A stretch of 64,000 bases of DNA from NCBI RefSeq assembly GCF_021028975.2, contig NC_059430.1:64542001-64606000 (forward strand), given 5' to 3'. Of this stretch, positions 8,494 through 59,200 are shown piece after piece. The notes below the pieces were generated by a model. The model ran no database searches. It was not told where the DNA came from and saw nothing but the letters and a program-made list of their open reading frames with translations. The translations under genes and the position numbers were made by a program. Within the stretch, counting starts at the first letter, position 1. Each line of letters opens with the position of its first letter. The stretch is from Sphaerodactylus townsendi (taxonomy: Eukaryota).

Positions 8494-9513
8494 CACCTCG
8501 TGCAAGGGCTCTGTGAGGTTTGCTGTGGCTGTTGTGGGTTTTCCAGGCTATGTGGTCGTGGTCTGGTAGTTTTTGCTCCTAATGTTTCGCCCCCATCTAG
8601 TTTGTTCATTTAAACAAGAGAACAGCACTAGAAGACAAGAGGACAGTATTTGCACCAGAAATGCTGGAGTTTACTTACTAAAAAGTTGTATCAAGCAATT
8701 ACCAGTTACTTATCAGAATTCAAAGACATTACCATATACAAGTGTCTGTTCTGTTATATCTATGTGTTTAGGTATACAAATCTTGCTGTATTGTTCTGTA
8801 CATAAGATGGTTTTGACTTAAAGAAATTAACTTGCATTGTCTTGTTCATCAATCTTCAAACCTTGTATCTTTTCATCTTGTCTGATGTTATTCAATAATG
8901 TTTCCAGTGCCCAAATATAATTCAGATGTGCGCCATCTTACCTAGAAAATTCTACCCTGTACTCTCCCACAGCAAAAGCCCTATAAAGCTTGAGGACAGG
9001 GTATCCAAAGGATCATTGCCTCTCAGACCCGATTTTCAGAAGTAGATATAGGACCCATGTAGACAAAAATGGTAATATGCAGATCTGCTCTTTCACCAAA
9101 ATGACATACAAATTTTAATAAACAGATTCTGTTGTGAGATCTTGTAGATATTATGTCTTGTTCTAGCTGCTCACAGAACCAGTTTTTAACAATATTCTTC
9201 TTTCCAGTGGCTTTGTCTAGACTTGAGTACCTGATTTCTTTTTTACTTCTTGGTAATTTTGAAGATGCATCCTTTTATTAACAAGGTGAATCCTTTTATT
9301 AACAAAGACAAACCACTGTAGCCAAGATATTTTTATCTTCTTATGATGGCTTATGGCAACTCAATGACTACCTCAACCGGAAAAGCAATGAATTGCTTAA
9401 CAGTGTTATGCTGATTGAAAACAGATCTGTTAAAGGAATATTAGGTGGACTTGGGTTAGTAAGATACCTAAAGCTTACCAGCAGTTTGGAAATTTTATTT
9501 TGTGGGTACTTAC

Positions 9514-9905
9514 CAGCAGTGGTGTAGTTGTTAAGAGCAGGTGAACTCTAATCTGGAGGAATCGGGTTTGATTCCCATCTCTGCCACTTGAGTTGTGGAA
9601 GCTTACCTGGGGAATTCAGATTAGCCTGTACATTCCAATACACGCCAGCTGGGTGACCTTGTGCTAGTCACAGTTCTTCTGAGCTCTCTCAGCCCCACCT
9701 ACCTCACAGGGTGTTTGTTGTGAGGGGGGAAGGGAAAGGAGTTTGTAAGCCTTATACATTCTGTATTTTGATAGGATTTTATTCTGTTTGTTTTATGCCA
9801 AATAAAGGCTAAAGAAAAAAAATAAAGTTTGTAAGCCCCTTTGAGTCTCCGACATGAGAGAAAGGGGGGATATAAATCCAACTCTTCTTCTTCTTCTCCT
9901 TCTTT
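9514..9905 (+). mobile_element. tRNA-derived CORE-type SINE (squamate), interrupted by a 74-bp insert
   Basis: A-box-like gtggtgtagttgttaagagc, B-box-like gggtttgattccc, CORE-like cccacctacctcacagggtg, (ttc)n tail. Insert at 9752-9825 flanked by a 12-bp direct repeat. Confidence 0.8.
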
Positions 9906-13316: not shown

Positions 13317-13967
13317 CAGGGGTCGGGAACCCGCGGCTCGCGAGCCGCATGCGGCTCTTCCGCCGCTGTTCTGCGGCTCCATCAGCCGAGCCGCGGGGCC
13401 CCTCTTCTCCCGCCCTGCGAGAAGCAGGCGGTATCGTTCCCCAGCGGCCGGCCCGGCCGAGCCGCTGGGCACCTCTTCTCCCGCCCTGCAAGGAGCAGGG
13501 CGGGAGCATCGTTACCCCGGCGGCCGGCCCGGCCGGGCACCTCTTCTCCCACCCTGCAAGGAGCAGGGCGGGAGCATCGTTTCCGGCGGCCCGGCCCGCG
13601 ACCCGAGCAGCGGGCACCTCTTCTCCGCCCTGCAAGGAGCAGGCGGGAACATCGACTCCCGGCGGCCCGGCAGGCAGCGGGCACCTCTTCTCCCGCCCTG
13701 CAGGGCGCAGGCGGCCATCTGGCGGCGGCCCGGCCGAGCATGAGCACCTCTTCACCCGCCCTGTAAGGAGCAGAGGCGGGCGCATCACTGCGCCCGGCAG
13801 CCCGGCGGGCCGAGCAGCGAGACCTGCCTGCCCTGCAGGCGGGTGTGTCTATGTGGCCAGGCGGAGGCCTTGAGCGGTGAAGTGAAGTACGAGGCGGAGG
13901 GCGTGCCAGCGAGTGGGGGGTGGGTGAGCCAAATGGCTCTTTGAGGGGAAAAGGTTCCCGACCCCTG
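13317..13967. mobile_element. Non-autonomous hAT (Charlie-like) transposon with an internal GC-rich minisatellite
   Basis: Perfect 15-bp TIRs CAGGGGTCGGGAACC / GGTTCCCGACCCCTG. Perfect 8-bp TSD GTTTAGAC (13309-13316 / 13968-13975). About 6 copies of a ~60-70 bp unit containing cacctcttctcccgccctgcaaggagcagggcggga. Confidence 0.92.
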
Positions 13968-15425: not shown

Positions 15426-15494
15426 AAAATTATTATGGCCCTTAATATGAGAAGGGGAAAATTATTATGGCCCTTAATATGAGAAGGGGAAAAT
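15426..15494. repeat. 32-bp tandem duplication
   Basis: attattatggcccttaatatgagaaggggaaa x2. Confidence 0.85.
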
Positions 15495-15881
15495 CCAGCC
15501 ACAGGGTCACCTATAGCAAGATTTGTATAGGCTTCAATGCTTACCCAAATCCAATAAATAATAATAATCAGCATTACCTGTTTCAGCATCATCTCTGCTA
15601 ATCTACAAAGACAAGTCTGAAGAATATATGGAGCAATTTGTGTTTCATTTCTAACAGATTCCTTCATAAGAGAACCTTGAAACACTGCATTTACTATGGG
15701 TAGTGTAGCACAAAGTTTTCATTTGGGAAATGACTATGGATCCTACATTTAATATAGTTTTTCCCAAAATGGTTGAAACTGCTGCAGTATGTCTTAGTGG
15801 GGACCAACAATGTCATCCTAAACAAAGCTATACTAATCTAAGTCCACAGAAGTCAAGCTTACAAAGTGAAACTTTGTATAG

Positions 15882-16341
15882 TGTAGTCATCCCCGCAGGG
15901 TCGTCGCTAAGGAATAGGCGAGACGCGGAGGAGGTTTCATCTGGTGGAGAGCGTCAGCAACAGGAAGCCTTGAGGATTTAAGTGATCCTGACAACTCTCC
16001 CTGTGCTGGTCTCTGGCACCTTTTATTAGGGTTTCATTGTGGGCGTGTAAAGGAGGTGGGTAGGGAGATGAGCGGGAGACCGGGAGACCTGGAGATCATC
16101 ATGTGATGCATGATCTCACCCTGCAGCTACGTCTTGGAGGAGAGGCGTGGCGTCTGAGCCTAATCCTCACCTGGGGGCAAGACCATTGTCCCTAAGCCCG
16201 GTGACTGAGCCGAAGACAGTTCATGACCATTGACTCATAGGGGGGGATGAGGAGTGGGGAGTGCAGTCGCGACCAGAGGCCGTGGAGTCCGTTGGCGTCC
16301 CAACGTTCTACCAGGGCTGCTGGGTCAGCAGTGCATTACTA
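15882..16341 (-). repeat. 3' LTR of the provirus
   Basis: Colinear with 21223-21673. The inner end lacks the terminal dinucleotide (..tacta vs ..tactaca). AATAAA on the - strand at 16022-16027. Confidence 0.93.
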
Positions 16342-16354
16342 TCTCCTCCTTTTA
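16342..16354 (-). promoter_or_regulatory. Polypurine tract
   Basis: The - strand reads AAAAGGAGGAGA directly before the 3' LTR. Confidence 0.85.
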
Positions 16355-17774
16355 CATTTTAGAAGGGGACGAGAAATGCTAAGGGGTGATTTAAAGGGGC
16401 AGCTTGTCTCCTCCGCCCGTCTGGTCAAGCTGACGAGCTGCTTGTGTAACATTAGAACTTGGTTGCGGGGTAAGGGGAAATTCGAGGGCTTCTTACACCG
16501 CGTTACAGGCAATATTAGACACACACTGAGCGAAGCAAGATCCGATAGCAGAGGCACACAATTAAACCAATGCAGAGCTGCACAATAGCACTCAACCATC
16601 CTCCCGCCAGCCAGCTCCAGAGGGCTGACCACCAATCAGAGCAAAACATCATATTTCAGATTAGATACAACTTCTTGCAGCTCACGTACTTTCATATGGA
16701 TCAATTGGGAATTATCAGGAAGATTAAAACAACACATATTATGTACATTCTCACAACCTTGGTGATGCAATAACAACAAATAATCAATGACTGACACGAT
16801 TATCTAAAATTAAACAGCCCGAAGTTCCTGCTGCTTTCGGAGGCCAGGGCATCAGAGCAATGGAGGAATGGAGTTGATGGACTTATGAGAACACAGGCCA
16901 ACCCGGCCAATAGTCTTGGTGTTACAGGAAACAAGTCCGGGGACTCCCACAAGGGAAGTTGCGAGGGAAACACATAGCAACTGAGCCGCCCGTGTAAAGC
17001 TCGGCAAAAGTCGGGGAAGGCGGGCGGTGGCTGTGCTTGGCTTCGAGGGTGAAGCCTGAGGCAGAAACGATGGTGTGAAGCGGTAGCAGAGAGTTCCGGC
17101 AGACACAGGCGAGGGAAATGCAGCAACAACAACCGGCAACTTCTAAAATTAAGGCATGCAATAACTTCAGCAATAGTTGGTTCACGGTAAGCAATAAAAC
17201 ATCGCTAAGCGATACATAGGCTGGATGATGTATGCGGAAGGAAGGCAACCCGTGGTTGCATAATTATCCAATGCATGGCTCTTGCTGTTTGACTACCAAA
17301 GCTACAGAAGCGATGGCGTTAGGAGTCCATGGATTTCTCAAGGCGTGAGGAGAGCTACTGATAGTCTTTAGCATTGCAGGTTCAGTGATTCTCCACGAGC
17401 AAGGTTGAGAGAAGCGTGTTCCAACAATATTCAATGACTGAGAACAGCCGGAGAGTTCCAAGGGTTAATCTATCAGGAATGTCCCTGGCTGCAACTCAAG
17501 CTTCAGCCGAGGCGGCAGAGGAGAGAGAATAGCGGTGTAGATGAGGAGCGGCATCAACCTCTGAGCCACAGCTGGCCCAGGCTGCGTTCCCCCCAGGGGG
17601 GCCAGCTAGCGGGGCTGTGATCACTTGTGGAGAAGAATGGGTGTGCTGGCTCCAGAGAGATCCCTCCCATCTCGGCCCAGGCACAGGGGCAATAGGGAGA
17701 CTCTCAACAGAGGCCGGCGGGGTCCGGATCCTCCAGGAGGCCCAGCTCCATCGGAGATGGGGCTGGCCTGGCAT
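16342..17774 (-). pseudogene. env: env (ASLV/avian-gamma-type TM with CX6CC), frameshifted
   Basis: The - strand from 16788 reads in one frame IDYLLLLHHQGCENVHNMCCFNLPDNSQLIHMKVRELQEVVSNLKYD, resembling ASLV gp37 [31 protein letters not shown]. Upstream are a fusion-peptide-like SLATSLVGVPGLVSCNTKTIGR and LAC; downstream are WWSALWSWLAGGWL and a hydrophobic TM. The 5' boundary is approximate. Confidence 0.85.
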
Positions 17775-19500
17775 GGCGAGCTGGACTCCCTGTATGGAAG
17801 AGACAAGCAGCTTTTCCCCAGAGGGTTTTCGTGCTGGCTGAGTTAGTCCTTATAGATGGCGATGGAAAGCCAGCGAGCCTGAGTGGAAGACAATTTTTTG
17901 ATAGATAGAGAATAGAAGAGTACTTTGGATATGGTCTGCTGGATGAGACCTTGATTGGAGTGGAATGGAACTACTCCCCTTTCTTTGGATTTGTTTGGCC
18001 AAGCACCGTTGAAGCGCCAGTTGGCCCCATTCCGACAACGATCACTTGCAACATTCAAGTTAAGAGATACAAGGCGAAATTGCCCGAAGGCTTAGGAGAA
18101 GGGAGAGGTCATATCCAGGTGGGATGTTTGTTTGTAAAACAATCCCAATCACCGTCTAAGGTGTGGGTTTTACAAAAGCAGCGAACAATTCACAATTATA
18201 GTCATATGGTAATATAGCATCTATAGGAAAGATATAGAAGATGCAAAGAAAACAGTTCCTGGGCTTGAGGTTTGATCACAGGGCAGAATTGAGAGGGTTT
18301 GCAAAACCTTTATCAGAATCCTAGATCTAGGAGTGGGGTCGCGTCAGCCCATTAGAAAGAGGGAGGTGTGTGCAGAAAGGAAAGGAAGGGTTTGGAAGTC
18401 AGCTCTACCTTCCTCGTGTAAAGGACTTTGGCGGTTTGAGCTAAGCTTCCTACCTTCTGGCCGGAGGCTGTGTAAGATAGGTGTGGCTGGTGCCCCAGCA
18501 CTGTGACTAGCCAGGGGGCGCTCAGCAGAGAATGTGGGAGCATGAAAATGATTTTGGCTTCATATGTAAACTTATGCGCCAATGTGGCAGTGTGGAAACT
18601 CAGATGAAGATGAAGGAAAAGGTTCTCAAGGAGAGGTTTGAAGAAGTTTTGAAGGTTTAAACCTTAAGATGGGCGGCTTGAAGCAGGTCCCATCGGTATC
18701 CTGAGAACAACATGCGAGCTGTGTCCCGTTTAAAGGCTAGGATGCTGTGGCGGTGAAACCTTTCAAGGCATTGGCACACATAATCAGAAGGAGAAAAACT
18801 TTAGTGAAGCACAAGAGCATAGCTTAGAAGCAATGGAAAAATCCCCTATGAGGGAAGAAACTTTAGGGTCTCTTGAAGGGGCAAGACATACCAGAATTTA
18901 TACATAGGCATACAGAGCACATATAAAATGCTAGGGAGGATTGCAACTCTGATTTGAGATTTTGCTCTCTCTGAGGGTGCTGCCAGCACCACTGGGAGCT
19001 TTGAGCTTAGGGCTTTGCACAGGCTCAGAGGCTATGAGATCTGGTTTGAACCTTACAGCTGGAAGACCAAGGGGGGCTTCTTCTTCGAAGGACTTTTGGC
19101 TTAAAGGCCATTGTCGCGAGCATCTTCCCCTTTCCATGCCTCATTGTCCCGTAGATTGGCTATAGGGCATTCTGAGAAAGGAGTTCAAAAGCGGCAGTCC
19201 TCTTGGATAATGAAGGCAGCGGACTGGGCATAGTGCCAGAATATTGGTTGCGTTCTCTTCCGTCAGCATTTCCTTCTGTTGCAATTCAGTGACTGTGGAC
19301 TCTGCAGAAGATTTTTTGAAATCGTGCCACTCTGGGGCACTGGCAGAGGCATGGTGACTTTGGAAGTAGAAAGGGTTAGCAGAGCAGGAAGTATAGGCGT
19401 AGGGAGGGAGCAAGCTGGCAAGACCAGCCCAATGGTCTCCGTGGGGATGGGATCACTATACTGAGCTGGGGCAGCGAAGATCTCATGAGGGAACTCGGGG
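17750..19500 (-). pseudogene. pol: Highly eroded dUTPase-pro-pol relic
   Basis: Motif remnants in the expected order, identified by eye: dUTPase-like PIPTETIGLVLP (~19455-19418), RT-start-like QWPLSQK (19113-19093), RNaseH-like PFLSFLHT (~18390), IN-core-like DMT..*AFGQFRLVSLNLNVASD (~18116-18040), IN C-terminal-like WGKAACLFHTG (~17820-17790). No YXDD motif was seen. Confidence 0.6.
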
Positions 19501-19539
19501 AAGGGTTTGAGGAGTGCGGATCTTGGTTCCGGGCTGGGG

Positions 19540-21014
19540 AGATGCCAGTGCGGACACTCCCAGCGGGCATTGGGAAGCGCCGGTCTTAGACTTTCCTGGG
19601 GGCCCTCTGGGGAGAACCCTCCTCCATCAGGGTTGTAGGCCCCCGCTTGACATGCTACAATTCCTCCCGAGGAATGTCCTGGTTTGCCGCGAATTGAGAC
19701 ACTTCGTCTGGGGCTGTCTCGCCTTGGCAGCGGAGAGAGGCGGCTAGGAAGGCTGGCTTGATGGGCGAAAGACCCGATATCCTGGCAAGCTTTGAGCATG
19801 TCGGCCAGCTTCGAGGAGTTCCTTCCTAGGCCTGTGATAAACTGCGGCACTCAGCGGAGGCGTTCTCCTTGGCAAAGGCGCTTGAGGAGTTAAGCCCTGG
19901 GCCTCCCCTCGTTGTCAACCTGCCTCTTGAGGCCTCCTGGAACCTGTTCACAAACTCAGCATAGGAGCTCTTGAGGCTTCTGCCGGTGCTAACTGAAAAA
20001 CTTTGGGTTGACTTTGTCCGGTATTGGGGACTTTCAGCGCCCAGCGAGGCGCATTCCAGAAAAGGCGTGGGGGGGTGGCCACCCGGCAGAACAATCTGAT
20101 TGTTGGGGTTACTGAAGGCATCGAAGCCGTAAAGCTGTCTTGCGGGGTAGCGGCCCGAGGCAGCTGCCCTGCTAAAGCATTGCTGGGCGGAACTTCGCTC
20201 TCCCAGATCACAAATTGTGCAGGGCTCAGGAGCATCGGAAGGTGGTCTTCCAGTCGTCCCGGAACCATTAAGTGATTCCTCGCGACCGCCTCTAGCATGC
20301 ACCTCTCACGCAAGGGGCTGGTGACTCCCGCGTCCGCGCATCGCTTTAGCGGAGCTCAGTGAGGATGTTATAGCTTAAGAGGCGGTGCACTTTCGACAAC
20401 CAGCGGTTTCAGCGCCATCCTCCCCACCGGTATCTCTGTGAAATGGGCCGGGCACAATCTGCGAGAATGCTCGGCATCGTCTTCCGTCAGGGTTTCTTTC
20501 CTTTGCAGATCGTGGCTATCACGCTCTGGGAACCAGCGCCATTACGATGGCGCTAACCGAGGAGAGTCGCGGTGGCTTTGGAAAATGAAGGCGGAGCAAG
20601 GGGAGGCTGACTGAGCGTGATTGAAATGGGCGAAGAGCAAGGGGCAGAAGGAGGACGAAGCGTCCAATTTAGCGGATAGAGAAAATTCCGGGGTTGAAAT
20701 TGAAGGTGAAAGATCGAAGGAGAGTGACCTACAGCAAAGGGAGCCATAGGTCTGCAGGCTGATGGCGACATAACATTGTCTCCCGTCGGTAGCGGTGACA
20801 CATCGGCGAGGCTCTGTCGCGAAAGTGCGCCCGATGTTTTCCCAGTCCAGATTCAATGTCCCCCCTCTGGGTACCATGGACACTGAGCTTCAATCTCTCC
20901 TCAACCAATTTCGCGCAGCTCCCTTCTCTTTCACGGGGACCCTGCCGCATTTAAGCTAACGCTTTCAGCTTCGTCAACGTGCTTGTCATAAGCCCTGCTT
21001 TTGCAAGCTCCCAT
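19540..21014 (-). pseudogene. gag: gag (betaretrovirus-like MA, CA, NC), frameshifted
   Basis: ATG GGA at 21014 (MGACKS, myristoylation Gly2). Joining single-nt frameshifts gives ..QCPWYPEGGTLNLDWENIGR (beta-type MA motif), late-domain-like LYPL and PSAP (~20680-20640), CA MLLSPAQFVIWESE, MHR-like YAEFVNR.QEA, LADMLKACQDIG, and a CCHC knuckle ..GKPGH..RNC. Confidence 0.9.
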
Positions 21015-21022
21015 ACTCACCC
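21015..21022 (-). promoter_or_regulatory. Major splice donor of the provirus
   Basis: GG|GTGAGT on the - strand, directly abutting the gag ATG. Confidence 0.65.
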
Positions 21023-21201
21023 GGTGTTCCGTCCGGACCGAGAGAGTGTCCTAGGACGCTAGCGTGTCTCTGGATCGCGCCGATCCAGAGGACGAAGGCG
21101 ATAATACCAAAGCGGGTGGTCCCCTGGATACGCCCGATCCAGCCGGACTTGGTATGTGACCCCTTCCCAGGCGACGGTGAGCAGGGTGGAGGTTCGAGGA
21201 T

Positions 21202-21219
21202 TCCCGGGTTTCGGCACCA
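21202..21219 (-). promoter_or_regulatory. Primer binding site, tRNA-Phe
   Basis: The - strand TGGTGCCGAAACCCGGGA, 3 nt after the 5' LTR, is the 18-nt complement of the vertebrate tRNA-Phe(GAA) 3' end TCCCGGGTTTCGGCACCA. Confidence 0.92.
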
Positions 21220-21222
21220 GCT

Positions 21223-21673
21223 TGTAGTCATCCCTGCAGGGTCGTCGCTAAGGAATAGGCGAGACGCGGAGGAGGTTTCATCTGGTGGAGAGCGTCAGCA
21301 ACAGGAAGCGCTGGAGTTCATTGTCCTGACAACTTTCCCTGCGCTGGTCTCTGGCACCTTTATTTGGAACACCATTGTGGGCGTGTAAAGGAGGTGGGCG
21401 GGAGATGAGCCGGGAGACGGCGAGACCTGGAGATCATCATGTGATGCATGATCTCACCTGGCTACGTCTTGGAGAAGAGATGGCTGTCTGAGCCTAATCC
21501 TCACCTGGGGGCAAGACCATTGTCCCTGCGCCCGGTGACTGAGCCAGACAGTTCATGACCCGTGACTCATAGGGGGATGAGGAGTGGGGGTGCGGTGCGA
21601 CCAGAAGGCCGTAGGTCCGTTGGCGTCCCAACGTTCTACCACGGCGCTGCTGGGTCAGCAGTGCTTTACTACA
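21223..21673 (-). repeat. 5' LTR of the provirus
   Basis: TGTAGT...ACTACA termini, adjacent PBS, colinear with 15882-16341. Confidence 0.95.
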
Positions 21674-21807
21674 GTATAGAATGGCACTGTAAGACAGCAG
21701 TCTAATACATGGCTAGATTCCAATCCTGTAGTATGTTAATTCTAATGCATGTTTACCTGAAAGTGAGCTTCAAAATAGTAGGCATATGACTGGCCCTGAC
21801 CTCTTGG

Positions 21808-21984
21808 CCCAGGCTAGCCCATCTCATTACATCTCAGAAGCTGACCATGGTCAGTCAGAGCACCATGGAAGTTCTATATAGAGGCAGGCAATAGCAAACC
21901 ATCTCTGAATGTCTCTTGCCTTGAAAACTCTAGGGAGTCACCATAAGCCTGCTGCGATTGGATGATATTTTCCACCACCACCAC
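21808..21984 (+). mobile_element. 5S-derived SINE (5S-Sauria-RTE type), internally deleted
   Basis: Similar to 8305-8493; ends in (cca)n. Confidence 0.55.
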
Positions 21985-25699: not shown

Positions 25700-36502
<10,803 letters not shown>

Positions 36503-56234: not shown

Positions 56235-59200
56235 CAGTGGTACCTCAGTTTTTATTTATTTATTTTATTTATTGTATTTGTATACCACCCTCCCCGAAGG
56301 CTCAGGGCGGTTTCCAACAAAATAAAAAGTTAAAACATCATATATATAAATTAATTAAAATACATAAAATATTAGACTAAAGATGGCTTCAGCTATTCTA
56401 TTCCCCCTTTTATGAACCCACGGGAGGCCAGATGTTTGCTTTTTGTTGCAGTTGATATCATCCCAGCTGGCCAAATGCCTGGCGGAACAGGTCCGCTTTA
56501 CAGGCCCTGCGGAAACTTTGTAAATCCCACAGGGCCCTGATCTCACCTGGAAGCCTGTTCCACCAGGTAGGGGCCAGAGCCGTAAAAGCCCTGGCCCTTG
56601 TAGAGGCCAGCCGGATCGCCTTGGGGCCAGGGATCACCAGTAGGTCCGCCTCCGATGAACGGAGGGGCCTAGAAGGGCGATATAGGGAGAGACGGTCTCT
56701 TAGATGTGCGGGGCGGCTTTAAAGGTCAAAACCAAAACTTTAAACATGACCCGGTACTCGATCGGCAGCCAGTGCAGTTGGTATAGGACCGGAGTAATCC
56801 GGTCCCTTGCTGTTGCTCCGGAAAGGAGTCTGGCTGCCGCATTCTGTACAAGTTTCAGTTTCCGGATCATGGCCAAAGGTAAGCCCGCGTAGAGCGAGTT
56901 ACAGTAGTCTAATCTAGAGGTGACCGTGGCATGGATCACAGTGGCCAGATCAGAACGGGAGAGATACGGGGCCAGTTGCCGTGCCTGCCGCAGATGGTAA
57001 AAAGCTGCCTGGGCTGTCTGGGTGACCTGGACCACCAATGATAAAGATGGATCCAGAGTCACCCCCAGGCTCTTGGCGAACAAAGTTAATTTTAACGTCT
57101 CGCCAAGAAGGGTAGGCAGGCCAAAGGCCACCGGACACTCCCCCCGGCCCAGCCACAGGACCTCCGTCTTAGTGGGATTCAACTTCAGCCGACTTGCACT
57201 CAACCAACCAGCCACAGCATCAAGACAACGCAGGAGAGCATCAGGGGCTGAGGTCGGGCTGCCCTCCATTGTGAACAAGAGCTGGGTGTCATCAGCGTAT
57301 TGATGACACCGCAGCCCAAAACTCCGAACTAGACTCGCCAGGGGGTGCATGTAGATATTAAAAAGCATCGGGGAGTATCGCTCGCTGGCGGCACCCCACA
57401 CATCTTGGGGCGACGCTTCGAGACCTCACCCCGATGCCACCTGCTGTCCCCGATCTCGAGGAACGAGATCAGCCAATTTAAGGCTGAATCTCCAACCCCG
57501 ATACAAACAAGGCGGTGGACCAAAAGGTCGTGGTCTACCATATCAACGCTTCGGTGAGATCTAACAACACCAACAGCCAACCGCCTCTGTCCAAGTGTAG
57601 TCGGAGGTCGCCCACAACAGTGACCAGCACCGTCTCGTCCCATGACCAGCGCTGAAGCCAGACTGGAAGGGATCCAGTACGCTTGTGTCATCCAGGAATC
57701 GCTGGAGCTGAGTCAGCCACCGCCGCTCAATTACCTTGCCCAAGAATGGTAAATTGGAAACTGGGCGGTAATTGGCCGGATCTCCAGGGATCTAAGTGCG
57801 GTCTTTTAGGAGCCGAGGGCGGACCACCGCCTCTTTAAGCCGACCAGGGAAAACTCCTTGCTCAAGGGAGCAGTTAACTATATCCAACAGGTGGCTCCGA
57901 AGCTCCTCCCCGCCGGCTTTCACCAACCAGGAAGGGCACGGGTCAAAAGGGACAAGTGGGTAGATCGTGACAGCATCCAGGGATCCTGTCAACATTCGTT
58001 GGGTCAAGTAAGTTGAAGTGGTCCAAGAAAGGACCCAAAGACGGCCCAGGGGCCTCTAAGTTCACATACCGTGATCAATAGTGGCAGGGAGTGGGATTGG
58101 CGGAGGGTCAGGACTTTTATTGTGTGTGAAGTAGTTACTGCAAAGCCTCACAGCCTAATGCCAAATCAGTCTCTTTTGGACCCCTATCGAAGAGGTCGTC
58201 AACGTCCGAATTACCACTCGTAAACAATTGTGCTGGTAGCGAACTAGCAGATTCAATAAGCTGAAGCAAAATATGCCCGCTTTCTCGTCTCCCCCCTTCA
58301 CAGTACCTCTGGCATAGGACTTCATAAATCCATCGATATGAGTGTCTTGACCCCTCGTCCAAGTACCACAGCACGCCACCCTCGGGCTTCAAGCCATCTC
58401 AGTTCCCTTTTCATGCTTCCTCAGCTCCTTGGTGTACCAAGGAGCCGGGTTAATGCGGTAATGCCGGAGAGGACGCTTTGGAGCGATACCATCGACGGCT
58501 TCAGAGAGCCTGGTGTCCCAGCTCTCTACCAGCTCATCTAGAGTAGCTCCAGTGGGCGGGAGTTCCCGTAGAGCATTTTGGAACCGTTCTGGTTCCATTA
58601 GTCTCCGCGGGCGGGCTAAAATATGCCCGTCACCTAGACGGGGGGGGGCATAGGAGCATCAATCCGAGCCTTCAGGACATAGTGGTCAGACCACGGCACT
58701 CTTTCTACAGAGGATAAGACCACATGCACACCTGCCGCGAAGACTAGGTCCAGAGTGTGGCCTCCTTGATGAGTAGGGACACCAGTATTTATAAGAGAGA
58801 GGCCTAGCGTCGCCATGGATGACACTAGATCAGCGGCCACTGACGAGGAGGCCGAATCAACATGGACGTTGAAGTCACCCAACACAATTAAGCGAGGGTG
58901 ATCCAGCGCCCACTCAGAGATGACCTCCAGCAGTGGATAATTTGTCTGAAAGGAATCGACAAAAACCGAAATCGACGAAAACTGAGGCACCATTCCCCAT
59001 AGGAATCAATGTAAATCCAATTAATCAGTTCAAGGCACTCCAAAAAGTGCCTGGAAGGGATTAATCGGCTTCTTCAAACCCCAGCAGGGAGGCAGAGGGA
59101 GCTCCTTATTTGGGCAGTGACATCAGAGGGAGTCAATGCCCAAATAAGGAGCTCCCTCTGCCTCTCCCTGGCTGGGGTTTGAGGAAACCCAGCCAGGAGA

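What the first reader, a model, noticed from the sequence alone, without database searches (positions are those of the whole stretch)
17750..19500. pro-pol eroded to about half length while gag and env TM stay recognisable: a helper-dependent retroviral lineage
Only ~1.75 kb separates gag from env, versus roughly 3.5 kb for dUTPase-pro-pol. Faint remnants of dUTPase, RT start, RNaseH and integrase survive in the correct order, which suggests many dispersed deletions and substitutions rather than one big deletion. This region looks CpG-depleted and far more decayed than the CpG-rich gag, LTRs and perfect PBS. Inference: the decay predates this insertion, so the family replicated for a long time using another virus's enzymes while keeping its structural genes, like a satellite retrovirus that contributes Gag/Env.
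Basis: partly seen in the sequence, partly recalled or inferred. Interest (0 to 1): 0.72.

Follow-up and report, generated by a model that had tools for sequence, protein, structure and literature searches.

The report
Satellite of a two-part endogenous retrovirus
This is one of about 400 copies of a recently mobile retrovirus relic that encodes no replication enzymes, and it likely borrows them from two sister families that are each incomplete, one holding the protease and envelope and the other reverse transcriptase and integrase, which would make the helper a retrovirus split into two complementary genomes.

Summary
The locus is a 5.8-kb beta-like provirus (15882-21673, minus strand, 6-bp target duplication) that is absent from a second animal of the same species, so it inserted recently. 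It belongs to a family of about 400 copies (type C) that all lack protease, RT and RNase H, so helper dependence is confirmed.

The 1.75 kb is not uniformly eroded pol. It holds a dUTPase relic, a gag duplicate, about 1.05 kb of likely host DNA with a decayed SINE, and an integrase relic. RT and RNase H remnants were not found. The env lacks SU, so an Env contribution is unsupported.

The surprise is the helper. In this LTR subfamily, 65 of 65 RT-bearing copies lack protease and SU (type A). All 17 protease-bearing copies examined lack pol; 15 keep SU (type B). Each keeps its own genes under purifying selection, and all three types exchange gag and 3' env. No uninterrupted autonomous copy was found among 100 RT-selected loci. 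Best reading: an obligately bipartite endogenous retrovirus with a satellite. Complementation is inferred, not shown.

The parts
15876..15881 (.). target-site duplication, left copy (6 bp)
   Evidence: sequence; empty-site contig in run X2
15882..16341 (-). 3' LTR
16342..16365 (-). polypurine tract
   Evidence: sequence
16373..17086 (-). env TM only (ASLV-like TM; SU absent); open as a 309-aa frame in several sister copies, broken in this copy
17116..17470 (-). degenerate second copy of env TM sequence standing where SU was; shared with type A
   Evidence: nhmmer; coordinates
17550..18130 (-). integrase C-half and pol C-terminal relic, decayed by many small indels
18130..19190 (-). segment X: no detectable pol homology, T-rich and CpG-poor, likely captured host DNA; its first ~180 codons extend the Gag frame in sister copies
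18400..18595 (-). decayed fragment of a high-copy host SINE inside X
19215..19390 (-). duplicate of the gag MA-CA spacer
19415..19560 (-). dUTPase relic, fused in frame to Gag in sister copies; gag-pro frameshift signal absent
19600..21014 (-). gag (MA, CA, NC with one zinc knuckle); frameshifted in this assembled copy, open in many sister copies
21202..21219 (-). primer-binding site, 18 nt, shared by types A, B and C (tRNA-Phe assignment recalled, not tested)
21223..21673 (-). 5' LTR
21674..21679 (.). target-site duplication, right copy (6 bp)

Best explanation
The window holds a recently inserted copy of an enzyme-less endogenous retrovirus family (type C) that is likely mobilised in trans by two complementary defective sister families, type A supplying reverse transcriptase and integrase and type B supplying protease, free Gag and envelope. 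Shown: type C is LTR-PBS-gag fused in frame to a dUTPase relic and foreign DNA, then an integrase relic and a TM-only env. Type A is one 1596-codon Gag-RT-RNase H-IN frame with the protease reduced to a neutral linker and no SU. Type B has gag, a frameshift signal, dUTPase-protease and a full env but no pol. All share LTRs, PBS and a recombining gag pool. Inferred: particles built in a cell expressing A and B carry B Gag, Gag-Pro and Env plus A Gag-Pol; B protease would process A Gag-Pol in trans; RNAs of all three types would be co-packaged, copied and integrated. Because every cell inherits all types, the usual co-infection cost of a split genome would not apply. Type C is likely a freeloader whose long frame is kept for a cis benefit (packaging or RNA stability). 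Segment X was likely picked up from a host transcript by template switching and replaced protease, RT and RNase H.
For: 43 of 43 type C loci lack PR, RT and RNase H; 405, 393 and 125 genome matches to X, protease and RT motifs, controls 0. Among 100 RT-selected loci, all 65 with the window's LTR type lack protease and SU at DNA level; all 22 protease-selected loci lack pol. Purifying selection on genes that only one type holds: B dUTPase-protease 20 syn/2 nonsyn (omega 0.03, 9 copies), B env 0.11 (12 copies), A RT-RNase H 0.07 (7 copies); A protease relic 1.4 (5 copies). Type A is one clade (99/95) at the end of a ladder of protease-less lineages in the RNase H tree. Types are intermixed in capsid and TM trees, and C-B recombinants exist (L098, L107, L108), which points to co-packaging. 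Identical or near-identical LTR pairs occur in A, B and C. The site is empty in sample S2. SINE fragment in X: 27-35 bits for L093 against host copies, shuffles at most 11.7.
Against: No functional test. The census is incomplete: 100 RT-selected loci against 125 motif matches, and 22 of about 390 protease copies; the assembly is noisy (18 of 211 fetched loci carry long poly-C/G filler), so a full-length copy could be collapsed or present only in other animals. Seven loci of an older LTR type do hold both protease and pol; each has a break in at least one enzyme domain, some of which could be assembly errors. The host source of X was not located. Type B's own pol relic is also unalignable to pol (z -1.2 to 0), so erosion alone can erase homology in this group. 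LTR identity can be inflated by polishing.
Confidence: 0.7

Rival explanations
1. A single autonomous helper (a collapsed or individual-specific full-length copy, an older-LTR copy, or a circulating exogenous virus) mobilises A, B and C, which are then just three deletion families.
For: Seven older-LTR loci hold both protease and pol, two of them with LTR pairs only 6-8 mismatches apart. The assembly is error-prone in these repeats. One autonomous helper plus defective riders is the known pattern (PMC10924933, section 20).
Against: 0 of 65 RT-bearing loci of the window's LTR type carry protease. A's pol and B's protease each form their own long-branched lineage under purifying selection, which a passive deletion family would not show. 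Four of the protease-plus-pol copies share substitutions in conserved protease positions, suggesting the enzyme was already decaying there.
Confidence: 0.17
2. One reading: the central region is pol eroded in place (with a SINE inserted into a provirus), and type C is a mutualist that pays its helpers with Gag and a TM protein.
For: dUTPase and integrase relics lie in order, and the integrase relic shows dispersed decay. Type B's pol relic is equally unalignable. The Gag frame stays open for 766-827 codons; five equal-length multi-copy indels in it are all multiples of three; 182 open codons in X arise in 5 of 20000 shuffles.
Against: No RT or RNase H signal by Pfam, tblastn or nhmmer. X differs in composition from the viral relics (T 0.28, CpG o/e 0.38, against T 0.14-0.23 and 0.51-0.67). 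SU is absent. Low dN/dS in C capsid and TM rests on alleles shared with other types (79 of 87; 32 of 36); C-only variants are too few to show selection (3 syn/5 nonsyn; 1/3).
Confidence: 0.13

Closest known systems
Central-swap non-autonomous ERVs: bovine ERVK[2-1-LTR] D-type, mouse ETn, koala recKoRV (PMC10924933; passages and section 20 read)
   Same: Central segment replaced by an old piece of retroelement DNA, gag and env flanks and LTRs kept, recombination with the helper, recent mobilisation.
   Different: Those ride on one autonomous element. Here no uninterrupted autonomous copy was found, the helper functions are split over two defective families, and many type C copies keep a 770-830-codon Gag fusion frame.
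Complementary non-autonomous pararetroviruses ePVCVL / ePVCVL2 of rice (PMC5491270; abstract and section 8 read)
   Same: Two defective genomes with complementary gene content, shared regulatory sequence homogenised by recombination, no autonomous partner found.
   Different: Plant Caulimoviridae fossils in small numbers; here an integrating retrovirus with hundreds of copies, young and polymorphic insertions, a split between protease-envelope and RT-integrase, and a third, enzyme-less rider.
RLG_Cereba / RLG_Quinta retrotransposon pair of wheat (PMC11302176; abstract read)
   Different: Cereba is fully autonomous; a Gag contribution by type C is not shown.
Class II (HERV-K-like) ERVs with an alpharetrovirus-like envelope
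   Same: RT and Gag closest to HERV-K entries in the PDB (7sr6 E 8e-140; 8c9m, 6ssj; the HERV-K identity of 7sr6 and 8c9m is recalled), dUTPase before protease, 6-bp duplication; TM closest to ASLV. Alpharetrovirus-like envelopes are reported as widespread in reptiles (PMC13568524; passages read).
   Different: Genome split into complementary types; type A has lost the frameshift and the protease.
Acutely transforming gag-onc retroviruses (recalled)
   Same: Helper-dependent genome in which Gag is fused in frame to host-derived sequence.
   Different: The 182-residue tail has no credible homologue and no clear amino-acid constraint (omega 0.53, p 0.064).

Membership tests
Class II (beta-like) endogenous retrovirus | LTRs with TG...CA ends, 6-bp target duplication, tRNA primer site, polypurine tract | tested here: met
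Class II (beta-like) endogenous retrovirus | Beta-type Gag (p10, p24) and HERV-K-like RT; dUTPase upstream of protease | tested here: met
   Gag in sister copy L002; RT in type A; dUTPase-protease in type B; relic only in type C
Genus Betaretrovirus | Beta-type envelope | tested here: not met
   TM matches ASLV, syncytin-2 and filovirus GP2 entries
Central-swap non-autonomous ERV (ETn, recKoRV, bovine D-type) | Shares LTR, PBS and flanks with a helper and recombines with it | tested here: met
Central-swap non-autonomous ERV (ETn, recKoRV, bovine D-type) | Central coding region replaced by old non-self DNA | tested here: inconclusive
   SINE fragment and odd composition shown; source locus not found
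Central-swap non-autonomous ERV (ETn, recKoRV, bovine D-type) | One autonomous helper of the same clade | tested here: not met
   0 of 65 RT-bearing loci of this LTR type carry protease; no uninterrupted protease-plus-pol copy among 100 loci
Mutually complementing bipartite element (ePVCVL/ePVCVL2 type) | Complementary gene content, each part under purifying selection | tested here: met
Mutually complementing bipartite element (ePVCVL/ePVCVL2 type) | Shared cis sequences homogenised by recombination | tested here: met
Mutually complementing bipartite element (ePVCVL/ePVCVL2 type) | No autonomous member in the population | tested here: inconclusive
   one noisy assembly; 100 RT-selected loci examined
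Mutually complementing bipartite element (ePVCVL/ePVCVL2 type) | Complementation in trans demonstrated | not testable with these tools
   no RNA or protein data
Gag-donating partner (Quinta type) | Own gag under purifying selection independent of the helper | tested here: inconclusive
   C-only capsid variants 3 syn/5 nonsyn, p 0.26
gag-onc transducing retrovirus | Fused host part is a recognisable conserved gene | tested here: not met

The most novel reading that the evidence does not exclude
An obligately bipartite retrovirus is replicating in a vertebrate germline: the autonomous ancestor is gone, a protease-less Gag-Pol genome and a pol-less Gag-Pro-Env genome depend on each other, and a 400-copy satellite with captured host DNA cheats on both. 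The genome still holds the intermediate stages of the split, giving a fossil series for the origin of a multipartite virus.
Probability: 0.62. Interest if true: 0.9.

Novelty: new variant of a known kind. Interest (0 to 1): 0.78.

Why it matters
Known trans-complemented ERVs ride on one autonomous element. A retrovirus whose essential enzymes are divided between two inherited genomes would show that endogenisation removes the co-infection cost of genome splitting. It would make a theory directly testable on hundreds of datable copies: that cheating drives multipartite genomes and shapes the load of full cheats (PMC10159356; abstract, section 10 and passages read; the string 'retrovir' does not occur in its main text). 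It also raises why protease and envelope, which are shared goods, stay under purifying selection in type B. Practically, activity screens that look for one intact provirus would call this family dead although it has insertions segregating now. Ten full-text searches listed no bipartite retrovirus; subscription journals, repeat databases and supplements were not searched.

Tried and rejected
RT, RNase H or protease remnants in 19190-18130: none by Pfam, tblastn (only a 12-residue match at E 5.6), nhmmer on both strands against 12 related elements or shuffle-tested global alignment. Inverted pol as the source of X: rejected. Conserved host gene as the source of the Gag tail: one low-complexity repeat hit only, no hit (length-limited), no usable Atlas hit. 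Host source locus of X: DNA search returned only provirus copies because just 40 of 847 candidates are scored. Protease-less Gag-Pol fusions in other species: the search returned RT N-terminal matches from birds, a turtle and mammals, none spanning the linker (length-limited). Old age of this insertion from its 5% LTR divergence: rejected because the site is polymorphic and the copy's indel excess looks like assembly noise; contigs cannot prove the absence of its private variants. Expression: no RNA holder listed. Organism B run X4 gave no cover at 18458-18688 at 99% likeness; not interpreted. Pfam hits to a cobra-toxin and a lactamase family (E 0.05-0.2) are below cut-off and were treated as chance. 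Earlier findings of the scan: nothing. The IAP paper PMC2413153 was not held; it is cited only through PMC10924933. One search returned irrelevant papers.

Full report
Locus. The window holds a provirus on the minus strand, 15882-21673 (5792 nt), with LTRs of about 452-460 nt, a 6-bp target duplication, an 18-nt primer site at 21202-21219 and a polypurine tract. A contig of runs X1 and X3 (one sample) runs from the left flank into the LTR. In run X2 (another sample of the same organism) a 647-nt contig at single-copy depth lies on 15465-15881 with letters 231-647 and on 21674-21909 with letters 1-236; equal length and depth identify it as one record, the empty site. The insertion is therefore polymorphic and recent. 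The assembled copy has 78 gap events in 1.4 kb of gag against L002, where L093 and L002 differ by 2, and contigs disagree almost unanimously at several of its single-base indels. Its frameshifts and 5% LTR divergence are likely assembly noise; contigs cannot prove this.

The family (type C). A DNA search gave colinear copies of 5.2-6.1 kb. A 20-nt motif of the central segment matches 405 places, control 0. All 43 type C loci tabulated lack protease, RT and RNase H; 20 of them were picked from a gag search, mostly for long open frames. Clean copies encode MA-CA-NC with one zinc knuckle, continued in frame for 300-360 codons, and often a 309-codon TM-only env frame.

What the 1.75 kb is. Against the full-length relative L077 and the other types: a dUTPase relic (about 19560-19415), a duplicate of the gag MA-CA spacer (about 19390-19215), segment X (about 19190-18130) and an integrase C-half relic (about 18130-17550; 330 matches, 84 mismatches, 35 gaps). 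X shows no RT or RNase H signal by Pfam, tblastn or nhmmer on either strand. Its alignment scores against three pol genes are z 0.5-2.5 over 30 shuffles, against 7.8-9.6 for true relics. X contains about 200 nt of a decayed copy of a high-copy host SINE (4233 candidates): 25-35 bits in L093, 13-15 bits in the window copy with two of three queries and no hit with the third, shuffles at most 11.7. X is T-rich and CpG-poor (o/e 0.38) next to intact RT-RNase H (0.63-0.70) and the integrase relic (0.51). I read X as captured host DNA that replaced protease, RT and RNase H (inferred; source locus not found). Against this, type B's pol relic is also unalignable (z -1.2 to 0), so erosion plus a SINE insertion is not excluded.

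Does type C contribute anything? SU is absent, and a degenerate TM duplicate shared with type A stands in its place. dN/dS is low in capsid (0.13) and in the TM 3' part (0.04), but 79 of 87 and 32 of 36 multi-copy variants have both alleles in other types too, and C-only variants are too few to test. The dUTPase relic (0.63, p 0.16) and X tail (0.53, p 0.064) are not clearly constrained. The frame itself seems to be kept: in 34 of 40 copies aligned, the five equal-length multi-copy indels inside it (183, 72, 72, 48, 87 nt; two probably one event) are all multiples of three, while two unequal two-copy events are not; downstream only 2 of 7 such indels are, measured against a reference that is itself broken in the TM frame. 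An open run of 182 codons arises in 5 of 20000 shuffles of X. The tail has no credible homologue. [quoted passage not shown]

The helper is split. Searches for RT and protease found two further types with the same LTR, primer site and gag. Type A is one 1596-codon frame with Gag, RT, RNase H and integrase and no dUTPase or protease domain; the remains of pro form a neutral linker (omega 1.4) and SU is gone. Type B has a 518-codon gag frame with two knuckles, dUTPase-protease and a 531-codon env frame, and no pol. A gag-pro frameshift heptamer is present in B and L077 and absent in A and C. At DNA level, of 100 RT-selected loci, all 65 with the window's LTR type lack protease and SU; 28 have an older LTR type, 5 a third type and 2 were unassigned. 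Seven loci, all of the older type, hold both protease and pol. All 22 protease-selected loci lack pol, and 15 of the 17 with the window's LTR type keep SU. Each of the seven has a break in at least one enzyme domain, and four share substitutions at conserved protease positions. Motif counts are 393 for protease and 125 for RT, the latter including tandem units on small unplaced contigs.

Both halves are maintained. Multi-copy variants give omega 0.03 for B dUTPase-protease (20 syn, 2 nonsyn; 9 copies), 0.11 for B env (12 copies) and 0.07 for A RT-RNase H (7 copies), using only copies with open frames. These genes exist in only one type of this LTR subfamily, so the signal cannot be imported from the other. 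In an RNase H tree of 31 of 35 loci tried, type A is one clade (99/95) at the end of a ladder of protease-less lineages (midpoint root only). Older-LTR copies show stages of both losses: protease remnants of falling length, and pol deletions leaving 25-29% of RT and 26-43% of integrase. Types are intermixed in capsid (60 rows) and TM (33 rows) trees, and three loci join a type C 5' half to type B sequence. LTR pairs with 0-2 mismatches occur in A, B and C; the best protease-plus-pol copies have 6-8; polishing could inflate identity.

Mechanism. From general retrovirology (recalled): RT and integrase need proteolytic release, and Gag-Pol needs excess Gag to assemble. Type A makes only a protease-less Gag-Pol; type B makes Gag, Gag-Pro and Env but cannot copy its RNA. 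Co-assembly in one cell would supply everything, and type C RNA would be packaged with the shared signals. Conserved full env in B suggests spread through infectious particles. Gene content, selection, recombination and recent insertion are shown; processing in trans, co-packaging and the route of spread are inferred.

Comparison. Gag and RT are HERV-K-like and TM is ASLV-like; alpharetrovirus-like envelopes are described as widespread in reptiles (PMC13568524, passages). Type C resembles ETn, recKoRV and bovine D-type elements, which swap a central segment for old retroelement DNA but rely on one autonomous helper (PMC10924933, passages and section 20). The A-B pair resembles the complementary pararetroviruses ePVCVL and ePVCVL2 of rice (PMC5491270, abstract and section 8). 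Quinta of wheat is a Gag-keeping partner of an autonomous element (PMC11302176, abstract). Theory predicts that cheating can split viral genomes (PMC10159356, abstract, section 10 and passages). Ten searches listed no bipartite retrovirus; the library lacks most subscription journals, and supplements and repeat databases were not seen.

Verdict. The element alone is a new member of a known kind. The system it depends on, likely a bipartite endogenous retrovirus with a satellite, is a new variant. Confidence 0.70; interest 0.78.

Noticed in passing
window 13393-13791: Five GC-rich copies of a 53-nt unit, spaced about 63-144 nt, in a 70% GC island.
   Followed up: no
window 9480-9900: Young copy of a high-copy host SINE; the top 40 genome matches are 93-95% alike. 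Used as the query that identified the fragment in X.
   Followed up: partly
window 15426-15489 and 27976-28671: A perfect 32-nt tandem duplication, and an 82-nt direct repeat 614 nt apart.
   Followed up: no
window 56703-57425 (-): A 241-codon frame with a LINE-type reverse transcriptase motif (motif recalled).
   Followed up: no
L088, L154, L157, L160, L139: Small unplaced contigs hold head-to-tail units sharing one LTR; likely loops of the assembly graph, which inflate type A counts.
   Followed up: partly
L042, L070, L084, L089, L091, L096 and others: Long poly-C or poly-G filler next to or inside copies in 18 of 211 fetched loci: an assembly artefact that creates false long frames.
   Followed up: partly
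L098, L107, L108: Recombinants with a type C 5' half and type B sequence downstream; L098 has an open 834-codon Gag fusion and SU, a gag-env element without enzymes.
   Followed up: partly
L047:3850-4550: Type B's 700-nt central relic is unalignable to pol but pol-like in composition; older copies (L129, L171, L207-L209) show a cleaner deletion.
   Followed up: partly
types A and C, gag 3' end: Both lost the second zinc knuckle and the frameshift signal through what look like different deletions that fuse gag to the next frame.
   Followed up: partly
window 19010-19063: A second species (organism B, run X4) holds this part of X at 99% likeness or more and at high depth, so type C likely predates the species split or crossed hosts.
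   Followed up: no
L002:4363-4914 (-): The X-derived Gag tail has two hydrophobic stretches that could span a membrane; not modelled.
   Followed up: no
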